26,803 bases of DNA, from the IMG/VR virus record IMGVR_UViG_2548876959_000021, positions 1 to 26,803 of that record; one strand, written 5' to 3'. Made by a program: the position numbers. The stretch is from a virus. Lineage: Duplodnaviria; Heunggongvirae; Uroviricota; Caudoviricetes. Positions 6,001 through 9,000 of this stretch are shown piece by piece (the stretch's first letter is position 1; each line of letters opens with the position of its first letter).

Positions 6001-9000
6001 GGAACTCTTTGGCTACCGGAGTGCGAGCAAACATCGCGATTAGGTGGGCACCGCGTAGTGAGAAAACTCGCACTTTTTTGCGATAATTTCCTGAGGTACT
6101 CACTTCGAGTACCTGAGTCATTCCGGCGCTAAACTCATCGCTATACTTGTTATAAATCATTGTTACTGCACGACTATTTGCGTATTTAAGTGCAGATGCA
6201 ATATTAGATGATGTAAACCAAACACCATGCATATCACGGGTGGGCACCAACTCAACTCCGTGGAAGTTGTAATCTGATTTTGCTACAATATTCATGTTAG
6301 TTTCCTTGCATACGGTTACTGACATAGAGGCCCGGTTTGTGTTCGCGCACTGCCGGGCTTCACTATTTTTACTGGGCATTAGCTCTTTCCTCTCTCAGGC
6401 TTTTAGCCAGTCGCTGCACAATCGCAGAGTTGATAGAAATTCCATCCATTTCAGCAACACGTCTAATCTCCTCCTTCATTCGCGCTGGCAAACGAAGCTG
6501 GAAACTTTGACTTTTACGACCTGTGTAAAGCACATCTTTCATAAGTAATCCTCCCACAATGATACCAACTTGGTTCTAGAACCAATTTAACACCATTTAT
6601 TTTGATGTCAAGTTGGTGCTATTGTTTAGCGAACATCTTTACGTTGAGGTCATATGAGCAAGTTCCCTAGTCATGAAATGGATAGGTTCAATATCAGGCT
6701 TCCTGCAGGAATGCGGGATGCTATAGCTGAACGAGCCAAACGTAACGGCAGATCAATGAACTCAGAGATTGTTCAGATACTGGAAGATGCCTTGAATGCA
6801 GAAAATACACTCGGGGAAATAGCAGATAAAATCAACAGCGTCTCGGTTCCGCTAAATGTTGATGCGCTAGTTCAACTTCAAGCCCAGGTTATCGCCATGC
6901 AAAAAGAAATACAGGAAAAGTTCAGAGAGCAGAACGAAAAGTTGAGAGAACTGCTAAACAAAAAAACCACCTGACGGTGGGTTAATTTTTGCTTTTTTGG
7001 ACCATATTGACTACTCATAAAATGAGATCAATATTTAATCGCCCAATAACGGGTGCATGTTGAGGTATATCATGGCGAAAAAACCAGGTGAAAACACAGG
7101 AAAAAACGGCGGAATATACCAAGAAGTTGGCCCGCGCGGAGGTAAGAAAGACAATTTTGCCACCGTCAAGGACAACGAAAGGCTTCCGCCAACAACAAAG
7201 CCAGGTCATGGCTGGGTATTAGATAAGCGAACTCCAGACAGCAAAAAGTAATAATCAAGCCGGGTCACTCCGGCTTTTTGATATGTCGCTCGCAGAACTC
7301 AACAAGCCTGCTCATTAAGTAGCAGTAAGTCTCGTTGGCTCTTCCTGGTTCAACATCAACGCCGACCCTTGAGCAGATATCGAATGCCATGTGAGCGCAC
7401 TCATGGGCAATAGTAGATAGTTTGCCATTGAACACACCTATCACATGCAAAACACCATTCTCGCTGCTCATTGTATGAGACGCTCCGTTGGCATCCGAGT
7501 CCTGCACGTCCACGCCAAGTTTTTGATGCAGGCGTTGCCATTCTGGAAAGTCTCTGCAAAACACAATTGTACCGCTCTCAAAGAGCGGAACGAGCATTTT
7601 TGGTACGTTTCCAATGTTAACTTTTTTCATGGTATCCTGCTCAAAACTAAGGAGGTTGGTGTGCTTGAATGGTTTCTGTTGGCTGCATTAGTCGTTTCTG
7701 GTTTGGTGTATGAGTATCGAATGCACTCTCTAACAAAAAAAATAGGAATTCTAGAAAACGAATATTGTGCTCTCAAATCCTCACTGGAACGTGAGCAAGG
7801 GGACTTAAAAATCTCTCTGTCTAGCATTGAGCGTTCTATAGAGAGCTTAGAGGATAAGGTTGATCGTATAAAGAATGAGGATATTCATGATATTAAGGAC
7901 GACATATCCTTCTTAAAATCTTGGTTGAAAAATGTTGGGAAAATTGCCACATCAACACGAGATAAGCTCAATCCATCCATGGATGACTAATTACTCCTGT
8001 GCCATTCCGCTTAGCGATGCCACAATTCCAGCTCTTGCTAAACGCTGGAACTCTTCGTTTCCTAGTGCCTCGCGTATTGCTTTTACGGCGGCCTTATTTG
8101 CCATAAATCTGCGTTCCGCCGCCGCTAATGCGCCATCACTTGCCCCAACCTTAACTGCCTTTGTTGCCTCTTGAACAGCCTTTTCAATAGCGTAACGACC
8201 GCTTCTAGTTGCGGATAATTTCGCTATCGCTCCTTTTGCCATTGCATCAATTGCCCCACCTGCAGCGCCACCCGCTATTGCTCCAATAACGCCTCCTCCA
8301 GAGAACCCTGCGATAGTGCCAGTAGTTCTAAAAGCGCCAGACAATGCGCTCTCTAAAACTGGATGAAGGCCATTCTCAAGAGTGCTAATGGCTGGCATAG
8401 ATCGCCCTGTCTGTTCAACATATCGAAGTGGCTTTGTTGCTGCTCGTGCAAGTTCTCCGTATGAACTTGTAATCCTGCCAAGTTCTGGAGAATATCGACT
8501 AATTGCCTTCACGTTTTGTGGGGTAAGAATAGTCGCGATATGCTTAATTCCAGCCTCTTCAGACTTACCTCCGCGTACCCCTTGCGACATTGCATCTTGT
8601 AATATTGATGCAATTGCTGGCGCGCGTTCCGACTCAGGTAGGGCGCTTATTATTTTATGGAACTGACCTGTTCCACTTTTTGCTGAACCCTGTAACGCCT
8701 TAGATCCATTAGTTACCAACTGATCAGTTGCAAGGTCTCTACCAAACGCTGCTTCAGCCTGTTCTTGTGCTGTAAATCTTGCCTTTGACAGATCATTAGC
8801 TTTTTGCCAGTCATCAAGAAAACCGCCATTTTGAGCCATTATGCGCATATCTTCCGTTGCTGCATCACGAAGCTCAGCCATGCGCCTTGCCGTATTTGCC
8901 TCACCAGACCTTATATACTTCTGCTCTGCGTCAGCAAGTTTACTTCGCCATGCCTTCATGGCATCAAACGTGATTCCTTTTTTACCAGTTTTAGCATAAG

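What the first reader, a model, noticed from the sequence alone, without database searches (positions are those of the whole stretch)
6280..6370. sar-like antisense RNA candidate at the arc / Bro-N junction
Two minus-strand genes (arc and the Bro-N antirepressor gene) are separated by a plus-strand intrinsic terminator (8-bp GC-rich stem 6328-6360 followed by TATTTTT). Upstream of it on the plus strand, 3 nt from the Bro-N start codon, is an extended -10 element, TGCTACAAT. Together they predict a plus-strand RNA of about 70 nt that is fully complementary to the Bro-N gene RBS (AAGGAAA) and start codon. This mirrors the P22 sar RNA (about 69 nt, antisense to the ant translation initiation region) in size and geometry.
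Basis: partly seen in the sequence, partly recalled or inferred. Interest (0 to 1): 0.55.

Follow-up and report, generated by a model that had tools for sequence, protein, structure and literature searches.

The report
Divergent sar antisense RNA homologue
This is the E. coli prophage version of phage P22's well-known small antisense RNA "sar", which most likely blocks translation of the antirepressor gene next to it; it is an expected element, but too diverged for the standard RNA database to recognise.

Summary

Window 6296-~6368 (+) is a true but divergent homologue of P22 sar, not just a look-alike:
- It sits in the 73-nt arc-ant spacer on the opposite strand.
- It has the same extended -10 and the same spacing to the start-codon complement as P22 (TGCTACAAT-ATTCAT-G vs TGCTATACT-ATTCAT-G).
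- It has the same two-hairpin fold and is 65% identical to P22 sar.

Rfam's sar model misses it. A covariance model built from P22 plus 15 relatives, with no window-type sequence, finds exactly this site at 64 bits (E~6e-12).

In 80 Arc-selected viral loci the element is nearly always present. Both stems covary. G·U versus A·C counts (46:0 and 47:0) show that the fold is selected on the sar strand.

The target is a Bro-N + P22_AR_C antirepressor. Related cassettes precede antirepressors with P22_AR_N or ORF6N N-terminal domains.

Transcription and repression are inferred from P22, not shown here. One correction: the RNA probably starts just after the start-codon complement, so it covers the RBS but not the ATG.

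Side finding: a second, undescribed sar-like candidate lies at ~5576-5649 (+), opposite the next anti-repressor gene.

Verdict: new member of a known kind, low to moderate interest.

The parts
6260..6266 (+). Weak -35 region of the Psar-like promoter (GTGGAA/TGGAAG, 3 of 6 matches; 17-18 bp from the -10)
   Evidence: Sequence. It aligns with the annotated P22 Psar -35 GTGTTA, also 3 of 6. It lies in the codons of the Bro-N 'NFHG' motif, so its conservation may come from coding constraint.
6281..6289 (+). Extended -10 of the Psar-like promoter: TG-c-TACAAT, the complement of ant codons 3-5 (ATT GTA GCA)
   Evidence: P22 has TGCTATACT with the same spacing to CAT and to the +1 G. A -10-type hexamer lies 12-13 nt upstream of the RNA 5' end in 42 of 45 distinct upstream sequences.
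6296..6368 (+). Predicted sar-homologue RNA, about 73 nt. The 5' end at G6296 is set by homology to P22; the 3' end falls in the U-run at 6364-6370.
   Evidence: Model R1 hit at 6296-6370, 64.4 bits, E = 6e-12. Fold z = -5.9. 65% identity to P22 sar.
6296..6323 (+). Hairpin 1 (GUUAGU 6296-6301 pairs with ACUGAC 6318-6323), enclosing the anti-SD UUUCCUU at 6301-6307
   Evidence: all 44 distinct family RNAs form it; 6 pairs, 100% of cells paired, 2 pairs with double changes.
6327..6361 (+). Terminator hairpin (10-bp outer stem 6327-6336/6352-6361; inner stem 6339-6342/6347-6350)
   Evidence: Outer 9 pairs: none broken in 44 sequences, 5 pairs with compensatory changes. G·U to A·C count 47:0 on this strand.
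6364..6370 (+). U-run (TATTTTT) of the intrinsic terminator, overlapping the arc stop codon (6369-6371)
   Evidence: The T-run is conserved in all family members and sits on this strand only.
5669..6295 (-). Target gene: 208-aa antirepressor (Bro-N + P22_AR_C); RBS AAGGAAA = complement of 6301-6307
   Evidence: Pfam, PHROG 'anti-repressor Ant', RefSeq start in E. coli 55989.
6369..6542 (-). arc-like gene (57 aa, Arc ribbon-helix-helix), co-oriented with and upstream of ant
   Evidence: Pfam Arc, E = 8e-12; RefSeq annotation.
6584..6611 (-). Pant-like promoter for arc-ant (TTGACA, 16 bp, TAAATT, with TG), flanked by operator-like inverted repeats at 6556-6625
6654..6974 (+). Divergent Arc/Mnt-family gene (106 aa), in the position of P22 mnt
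   Evidence: Pfam Arc, E = 1.6e-20; layout compared with P22.
5541..5649 (+). Side finding: second sar-like candidate. Promoter GTGACA-17-TGcTACATT (5541-5569), predicted +1 at A5576, anti-SD TTCCTTA at 5588-5594, hairpin at 5617-5643, U-run to 5649. It is antisense to the start region of the 241-aa anti-repressor gene (4856-5581, -).
   Evidence: Not in Rfam. Not matched by the sar model.

Best explanation
Window 6296-~6368 (+) encodes a divergent homologue of the phage P22 sar RNA, inside the immI-type region of a P22-like E. coli prophage.

Proposed mechanism:
1. A promoter with an extended -10 (TGcTACAAT) is embedded in codons 3-5 of the antirepressor gene. It fires in the direction opposite to arc-ant transcription.
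2. The transcript starts at the base next to the ant start codon and ends at an intrinsic terminator that abuts the arc stop codon. This gives an RNA of about 73 nt with two hairpins.
3. The RNA is perfectly complementary to the arc-ant intercistronic mRNA. Hairpin 1 carries the anti-Shine-Dalgarno tract. Pairing occludes the ant ribosome-binding site and blocks translation of the Bro-N/P22_AR_C antirepressor.
4. [quoted passage not shown] Arc/Mnt-type repressors act on the local promoter and may not silence ant on read-through late transcripts. An antisense RNA could supply the missing post-transcriptional brake.

Shown here: the sequence signals, homology to P22 sar, structure covariation, strand specificity and complementarity.

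Inferred from P22 experiments: promoter activity, termination, pairing and repression.
For: - Synteny matches the annotated P22 immI region: mnt-like gene, then arc, sar and ant, with the tailspike gene further downstream.
- Base-level homology of the promoter, +1 position and RNA to P22 sar; the RNA is 65% identical.
- Same two-hairpin fold as P22 sar and as the Rfam sar consensus.
- Model R1, built from P22 and 15 relatives with no window-type sequence, hits 6296-6370 (+) at 64.4 bits, E = 6e-12, and nothing else in the window scores above 12 bits.
- R1 gave one hit in each of 81 of the 86 sources searched. In 80 of them the hit abuts the arc stop codon on the opposite strand. 59 of 60 distinct arc-downstream intervals show the same layout.
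- On the unfitted 16-sequence alignment, 240 of 240 pair cells are standard pairs, against 32-53% when partners are slid. Five pairs show double changes. The covariation score was reached by 0 of 500 shuffles.
- The terminator stem is never broken in 44 sequences.
- G·U to A·C counts are 46:0, 47:0 and 98:1, so the fold is kept on the sar strand and would be broken on the mRNA strand.
- A -10-type hexamer lies at a fixed distance from the RNA 5' end in 42 of 45 distinct upstream sequences, even though the host genes have three different N-terminal domain families.
- In L068 an inserted gene separates arc from the element, and the element stayed with ant.
- P22 sar function is described in PMC12197685, PMC7968456 and PMC12111858.
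Against: - There is no expression data for this element. Transcription, termination and repression are all inferred.
- Rfam RF00262 (sar) gives no hit even at E<=10, although it scores P22 at 97.8 bits.
- The -35 is weak (3 of 6), and the simple promoter scan did not call this promoter.
- Part of the promoter conservation could reflect coding constraint on the first ant codons.
- The aligned sequences are related to one another, so covariation counts are not independent events.
Confidence: 0.85

Rival explanations
1. The conserved hairpins act on the minus strand, within the arc-ant mRNA (for example as a processing site, attenuator or translational-coupling structure). No plus-strand small RNA matters.
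For: The complement of any stable hairpin also folds. The spacer is part of the arc-ant mRNA.
Against: - G·U wobbles in the plus-strand orientation are 46:0 and 47:0 over A·C on unfitted alignments. On the mRNA strand these positions would be A·C mismatches.
- The T-run follows the hairpin only on the plus strand.
- A -10 element is kept at a fixed distance upstream on the plus strand.
- The homologous P22 element is an experimentally defined plus-sense sar RNA (PMC12197685).
Confidence: 0.04
2. The hairpin and T-run only terminate or insulate stray plus-strand (antisense) transcription. The -10-like sequence is a by-product of conserved N-terminal codons and mosaic recombination junctions, so no dedicated regulatory RNA is made.
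For: - The promoter lies in coding sequence, its -35 is weak, and the scan did not call it.
- The JEP4 match is a 119-bp mosaic block, so some conservation may reflect recent exchange.
Against: - The -10/TG is kept in genes with three unrelated N-terminal domains (P22_AR_N, Bro-N, ORF6N), which all begin M-x-[S/I]-[I/V/L]-A.
- Hairpin 1 has no role in termination, yet it is conserved with compensatory changes and always carries the anti-SD tract.
- P22 Psar has the same weak -35 and extended -10 and is annotated as the sar promoter.
Confidence: 0.08
3. The region encodes a small plus-strand protein (ORF 6294-6548, 84 aa), not an RNA regulator.
For: An ATG-initiated ORF exists on the plus strand.
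Against: - The ORF runs through the conserved intrinsic terminator and antisense through arc.
- Family members have indels of 1-6 nt in this stretch, which would shift the frame.
- No RBS is apparent.
Confidence: 0.01
4. The element is a convergent analogue and not a homologue of sar. For example, it could be a SymR-like or other antisense RNA that independently acquired the same geometry.
For: Rfam sar does not match. The best Rfam hit is SymR at 21.8 bits.
Against: - The SymR score is far below its gathering score of 61, and there is no symE context.
- The element is 65% identical to P22 sar, with long identical blocks that include the promoter.
- Intermediates link P22 and the window in a single model.
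- Synteny with P22 is identical.
Confidence: 0.02

Closest known systems
P22 sar RNA (immI region; Rfam RF00262)
   Same: - Position in the arc-ant spacer, on the opposite strand.
- Promoter inside the first ant codons, with an extended -10 and identical spacing to the +1 position.
- RNA starts next to the ATG and ends at the arc stop codon.
- Two hairpins, with the anti-SD tract in hairpin 1.
- 65% sequence identity.
   Different: - Not detected by the Rfam model.
- The terminator hairpin is longer (extra inner stem) and has a better U-run.
- Predicted length is about 73 nt against 68-69 nt.
- The target has a Bro-N N-terminal domain where P22 Ant has P22_AR_N.
- The host is E. coli.
- A second anti-repressor gene follows, with its own candidate antisense RNA.
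sar genes annotated in other P22-like phages (epsilon34, UAB_Phi20; PMC2629481, PMC12111858)
   Same: Same immI module in the 'ant moron' of the late operon.
c4 antisense RNA of phages P1/P7 (immI)
   Same: A small RNA that blocks antirepressor (ant) translation by pairing around the ribosome-binding site (PMC12197685).
   Different: From background knowledge, c4 is made from the same-strand transcript and acts through short complementary loops, not as a fully complementary RNA from the opposite strand. No sequence or structure match was found.
SymR antitoxin RNA (RF01809)
   Same: A cis-antisense RNA of about 77 nt covering a ribosome-binding site, with a two-hairpin outline. It was the weak best Rfam hit.
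   Different: 21.8 bits against a gathering score of 61. There is no symE gene. The resemblance is in outline only.
Lambda OOP / P22 oop antisense RNA
   Same: A short, terminator-ended phage antisense RNA that tunes a lysis-lysogeny regulator.
   Different: OOP overlaps the 3' end of cII/c1, not a ribosome-binding site, and is not related in sequence.

Membership tests
sar RNA (P22 immI antisense RNA) | Encoded in the arc-ant intercistronic spacer, on the strand opposite arc and ant | tested here: met
   arc 6369-6542 (-), ant 5669-6295 (-), element 6296-6370 (+). Compared with the P22 annotation.
sar RNA (P22 immI antisense RNA) | Psar promoter lies inside the first codons of ant, and +1 is adjacent to the ant start codon | tested here: met
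   Met at sequence level only. TGCTACAAT-ATTCAT-G in the window against TGCTATACT-ATTCAT-G in P22, where the promoter and RNA 5' end are annotated. Conserved in 42 of 45 distinct relatives. Promoter activity was not tested.
sar RNA (P22 immI antisense RNA) | Two-hairpin structure: a 5' hairpin followed by a 3' intrinsic terminator | tested here: met
   Searches give the same fold, which matches the Rfam consensus structure. Covariation. Strand test.
sar RNA (P22 immI antisense RNA) | Full complementarity to the ant ribosome-binding site | tested here: met
   TTTCCTT at 6301-6307 is the complement of the AAGGAAA located 5 nt upstream of the ATG.
sar RNA (P22 immI antisense RNA) | Reaches the gathering score of the curated Rfam model RF00262 (43 bits) | tested here: not met
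   No hit at gathering score or at E<=10. The positive control, P22, scores 97.8 bits. This indicates the curated model is narrow. It is a database criterion, not a biological one.
sar RNA (P22 immI antisense RNA) | Detectable homology to P22 sar using a broader family model | tested here: met
   Model R1 (P22 and 15 relatives, window-type sequences excluded) scores 64.4 bits, E = 6e-12, at 6296-6370. P22 itself scores 49.6 bits with the same model.
sar RNA (P22 immI antisense RNA) | A transcript of about 68-69 nt is made and represses Ant translation | not testable with these tools
   Needs a Northern blot or RNA-seq, plus translational fusions.
SymR (RF01809) | Reaches the family gathering score and lies opposite the symE 5' region | tested here: not met
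   21.8 bits against 61. The neighbouring genes are arc and an antirepressor.
Second element (5576-5649) as a member of the sar family | Match to the sar family model or to Rfam sar | tested here: not met
   R1 gives 1.3 bits and Rfam gives nothing relevant. There is only architectural similarity and a suggestive pairwise alignment (58% identity; score 62 against 31±7 for shuffles).

The most novel reading that the evidence does not exclude
sar may be one member of a broad, modular family of antisense cassettes, each made of a promoter embedded in the first five codons of the target gene plus a two-hairpin RNA. These cassettes accompany antirepressor genes with unrelated N-terminal domains (P22_AR_N, Bro-N, ORF6N) in podoviruses and siphoviruses of Escherichia, Salmonella and Klebsiella.

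This prophage may carry two such RNAs in tandem: sar itself, and a second, apparently undescribed RNA (~5576-5649, +) that silences the next anti-repressor gene. On this reading, each antirepressor gene exposed to late-operon read-through has its own post-transcriptional brake.
Probability: 0.55. Interest if true: 0.45.

Novelty: new member of a known kind. Interest (0 to 1): 0.3.

Why it matters
The individual element is ordinary. A P22-like immI region is expected to carry sar, and the mechanism has been known since 1987.

Three practical points follow:
- The curated Rfam sar model is too narrow. Homologues in E. coli prophages go unannotated: the match is present in 77 of 5,426 complete E. 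coli genomes, and only protein-coding features were listed under it. The same applies in Klebsiella and Salmonella siphoviruses. In several phage records the spacer is even annotated as coding sequence.
- The promoter, the RNA and the first five codons move together as one module between unrelated antirepressor genes. This is a clear example of a DNA-level regulatory constraint shaping a protein N-terminus.
- A second sar-like candidate opposite a second anti-repressor gene suggests that tandem antisense control may be usual wherever antirepressor genes sit inside late operons. This is cheap to test.

Tried and rejected
- Rfam at gathering score over the whole window found nothing. Permissive Rfam on 6150-6500 gave only SymR at 21.8 bits, rejected as a chance resemblance in outline.
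- The simple terminator and promoter scan did not call this terminator (loop longer than 8 nt) or this promoter (weak -35), so it could not be used to estimate chance for this site.
- MAFFT on all 44 distinct RNAs mis-registers hairpin 1. RNAalifold therefore recovered only the terminator stem. I solved this with a 16-sequence subset in register and with per-sequence folds.
- Model R1 with default filters missed five loci that carry a variant terminator (L054, L058, L059, L064, L065), although the layout is visible in their sequences.
- Schaefer & McClure 1997 (PMC1369469), the experimental sar structure paper, is not held. Details of the pairing pathway could not be checked.
- I tested whether the second element (5576-5649) belongs to the sar family. 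R1 gives 1.3 bits and Rfam gives nothing relevant, so membership was rejected and only analogy or possible distant paralogy is retained.
- The plus-strand ORF 6294-6548 was considered as a small protein and rejected: there is a terminator inside it, and relatives have frame-breaking indels.
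Full report
**1. Context**

The window is the late region of a P22-like prophage. Almost all large ORFs from about 26,500 down to 2,293 lie on the minus strand and end with a tailspike gene at 2293-4230. Embedded between a 722-aa ORF (7991-10159, in the position of P22 gene 16) and the tailspike gene is an immI-type block:

| Gene | Coordinates | Strand | Evidence |
|---|---|---|---|
| Arc/Mnt-family gene, 106 aa | 6654-6974 | + | Pfam Arc |
| arc-like gene, 57 aa | 6369-6542 | - | Pfam Arc |
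| Antirepressor, 208 aa (Bro-N + P22_AR_C) | 5669-6295 | - | Pfam, PHROG 'anti-repressor Ant' |
| Second anti-repressor, 241 aa (PHROG family phrog_1726) | 4856-5581 | - | |
| Small gene, 73 aa | 4635-4856 | - | |
| Second Mnt-like gene | 4369-4620 | + | |

The same 161 bp around the finding occur at 95% identity or more in 77 of 5,426 complete E. coli genomes, so the host is E. coli.

**2. The observation**

- TG-c-TACAAT at 6281-6289.
- CAT (the complement of the ant ATG) at 6293-6295.
- The anti-Shine-Dalgarno tract TTTCCTT at 6301-6307.
- A hairpin at 6327-6361, with a 10-bp outer stem and a 4-bp inner stem.
- TATTTTT at 6364-6370, overlapping the arc stop codon.

The predicted RNA folds at -33.3 kcal/mol, z = -5.9. 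The generic scan missed the terminator only because the hairpin loop exceeds 8 nt.

**3. Comparison with P22**

The P22 record annotates:
- sar at 15021-15090 (-),
- its promoter at 15097-15125,
- arc ending at 15022,
- ant starting at 15091.

Read in the sar orientation, the two sequences are visibly homologous:

| Feature | P22 | Window |
|---|---|---|
| Extended -10 through the +1 region | TTGCTATACTATTCAT\|GTTGGTTT | TTGCTACAATATTCAT\|GTTAGTTT |
| Shared 9-mer | TTACTGACA | TTACTGACA |
| Hairpin arms | GAAGCCC...GGGGCTTCA | GAGGCCCGG...CCGGGCTTCA |

Identity over the RNA is 50 of 77 aligned columns, or 65%. Both RNAs fold into the same two hairpins, which match the Rfam sar consensus structure.

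Rfam RF00262 scores P22 at 97.8 bits. It gives nothing for the window at the gathering score or at E<=10. The only weak hit there is SymR, at 21.8 bits against a gathering score of 61.

By homology the RNA should start at G6296. It would then cover the RBS but not the ATG, which is a small correction to the finding.

**4. Comparative evidence selected independently of the RNA**

- Using the Arc protein as bait, I fetched 80 IMG/VR loci.
- Of 60 distinct arc-downstream intervals, 59 show the same layout.
- The 44 distinct RNA sequences each fold on their own into hairpin 1 (with the anti-SD inside it) followed by a terminator. The stem sequences differ between them: GUUAGU/ACUGAC, GUCGA/UCGAU, AUCAGU/ACUGGU, GUUGGUU/AACCGGC.
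- The 9-bp outer terminator stem has no broken pair in 44 sequences and 5 pairs with compensatory changes.
- On a MAFFT alignment of 16 sequences that excludes window-type sequences, the named two-hairpin structure has 240 of 240 cells paired, against 32-53% when partners are slid. It has 5 pairs with double changes, and its covariation score of 0.352 was reached by 0 of 500 shuffles.
- A covariance model built from that alignment finds window 6296-6370 (+) at 64.4 bits, E = 6e-12, with the next best hit at 12 bits.
- The same model gives one hit in each of 81 of 86 sources. In 80 of them the hit abuts the arc stop codon on the opposite strand.

**5. Which strand is under selection**

G·U wobbles on one strand become A·C mismatches on the other. 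In the sar orientation the counts are:

| Alignment | G·U | A·C |
|---|---|---|
| Unfitted 16-sequence alignment | 46 | 0 |
| Unfitted terminator stem, 44 sequences | 47 | 0 |
| Model-fitted alignment | 98 | 1 |

The fold is therefore maintained on the plus (sar) strand, not on the arc-ant mRNA strand. The T-run follows the hairpin only on the plus strand.

**6. Promoter and modularity**

- A -10-type hexamer (TATACT, TACAAT, TAAACT, TACACT and others) lies 12-13 nt upstream of the RNA 5' end in 42 of 45 distinct upstream sequences. It is often preceded by TGn.
- The host genes carry three different N-terminal domain families: P22_AR_N, Bro-N and ORF6N. Most have P22_AR_C downstream.
- Nearly all of them begin M-x-[S/I]-[I/V/L]-A. 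These are the codons whose complement spells TGC-TAYAMT.
- In phage JEP4, 95.8% identity to the window is confined to window 6257-6375, which is the promoter plus the RNA.
- In L068, a 154-aa gene is inserted between arc and the element, and the element stayed with the antirepressor start.

Promoter, RNA and first codons thus behave as one mobile module tied to the target's translation start.

**7. Mechanism**

Shown here:
- the signals,
- homology to P22 sar,
- structure covariation,
- strand specificity,
- perfect complementarity to the ant RBS.

Taken from P22 work: sar (68/69 nt) pairs with ant mRNA and blocks translation initiation (PMC12197685, PMC7968456). In P22-like phages arc and ant are transcribed from P_ANT and also from P_LATE (PMC12111858, PMC2629481).

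My inference is as follows. In the window the immI block lies in the late operon, upstream of the tailspike gene on the same strand. Late read-through transcripts would therefore carry ant. Arc/Mnt-type repressors act on the local promoter and may not silence ant on such transcripts. An antisense RNA would supply the brake.

**8. Comparison with known systems and novelty**

sar is known in P22, is annotated in epsilon34 (PMC2629481), and is described as part of the immI region of many P22-like phages (PMC12111858).

The window element is a divergent homologue outside the reach of the Rfam model, with a domain-swapped target. RefSeq annotates no RNA feature here in E. coli 55989. I rate it a new member of a known kind.

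**9. Side finding: a second candidate antisense RNA**

The 88-nt spacer between the antirepressor and the next anti-repressor gene holds a second plus-strand pair of signals:
- A promoter-like site GTGACA-17-TGcTACATT at 5541-5569, and a hairpin at 5617-5643 followed by a T-run.
- This predicts an RNA of about 74 nt from A5576, covering the start codon (CAT at 5579-5581) and the RBS (TTCCTTA at 5588-5594). Its fold has z = -2.2.

It occurs in 43 fetched loci. There are 14 distinct predicted RNAs of 74-81 nt, in three versions whose target-gene starts differ. Each version keeps:
- TGCTAnAnT, then 6 nt, then AGT,
- two hairpins,
- the plus-strand T-run.

Caveats:
- Its terminator stem is nearly invariant, so covariation support is weak.
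- It is not in Rfam and is not matched by the sar model (1.3 bits).
- A pairwise alignment with the sar region is suggestive of distant paralogy: 58% identity, score 62 against 31±7 for shuffles.

I found no description of it in the papers I searched.

**10. Verdict**

The finding is ordinary in kind, with modest added value:
- an extended family definition,
- modular promoter-RNA cassettes,
- a possible tandem second antisense RNA.

Noticed in passing
window 5541-5649 (+): A second sar-like antisense RNA candidate lies opposite the start region of the 241-aa anti-repressor gene (4856-5581, -). It has an extended -10 (TGcTACATT) with a GTGACA -35, a predicted +1 at A5576, an anti-SD at 5588-5594, a hairpin at 5617-5643 and a U-run. 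It is conserved in 43 fetched loci (14 distinct RNAs, three target-start versions). It is absent from Rfam and is not matched by the sar model.
   Followed up: partly
L068 1664-2128 (+), between arc (ends 1668) and the sar hit (2113-2181, -): A 154-aa ORF (MLEKIVAIYTGHAGF...RGYIYVLKLSNGFTKVGST...), which by eye looks like a GIY-YIG/T5orf172-type protein, is inserted between arc and the sar element. sar stays attached to the antirepressor start.
   Followed up: no
window 6257-6375 vs L002 (phage JEP4) 3001-3119: There is a sharp mosaic junction. 95.8% identity to JEP4 is confined to the 119 bp that hold Psar and sar, while the flanking arc and the ant body are not matched at the DNA level.
   Followed up: partly
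window 6281-6295 and homologous positions in L003-L085: Antirepressor genes with unrelated N-terminal domains (P22_AR_N, Bro-N, ORF6N) nearly all begin M-x-[S/I]-[I/V/L]-A. The complement of these codons spells the extended -10 of the antisense promoter. This is a DNA-level constraint on a protein N-terminus.
   Followed up: partly
L003 (Oslo) 1612-2586, L004 (KP12) 1936-2619, L005 (SPN3UB) 1901-2623; window ORF 5669-6379: Deposited annotations start the antirepressor CDS at an upstream in-frame ATG that runs through the sar spacer and overlaps arc. This is probably a mis-called start that hides the intergenic RNA. RefSeq for E. coli 55989 uses the shorter start.
   Followed up: partly
window 6556-6625: Operator-like inverted repeats lie between the divergent arc and Arc/Mnt-like genes (6556-6572 with 6609-6625, 82% complementary; 6558-6597 palindromic, 75%). 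They overlap a strong minus-strand promoter (TTGACA, 16 bp, TAAATT, with TG, 6611-6584).
   Followed up: no
window 4369-4620 (+) and 6654-6974 (+): The immI block has two plus-strand Arc/Mnt-family genes. One occupies the P22 mnt position next to arc. The other is closer to P22 Mnt in its C-terminal part (by eye) and sits next to the tailspike gene. A terminator-like hairpin on the minus strand (4628-4607) lies at the convergent junction with the 73-aa gene.
   Followed up: no
L054, L058, L059, L064, L065 (arc-downstream interval): A variant with a different terminator stem (GGAGCCCTGACTATCGCAAGTAGTTAGGGCTTC) shows the same layout in sequence, but the sar model missed it with default filters.
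   Followed up: no
window 7072-7251 (+) and 7265-7630 (-): Two small genes of unknown function (a PHROG family of unknown function with a weak YjzC-like Pfam hit, and phrog_1365) lie between the immI block and the 722-aa injection-type gene. They are separated by a bidirectional terminator-like hairpin at 7257-7276.
   Followed up: no
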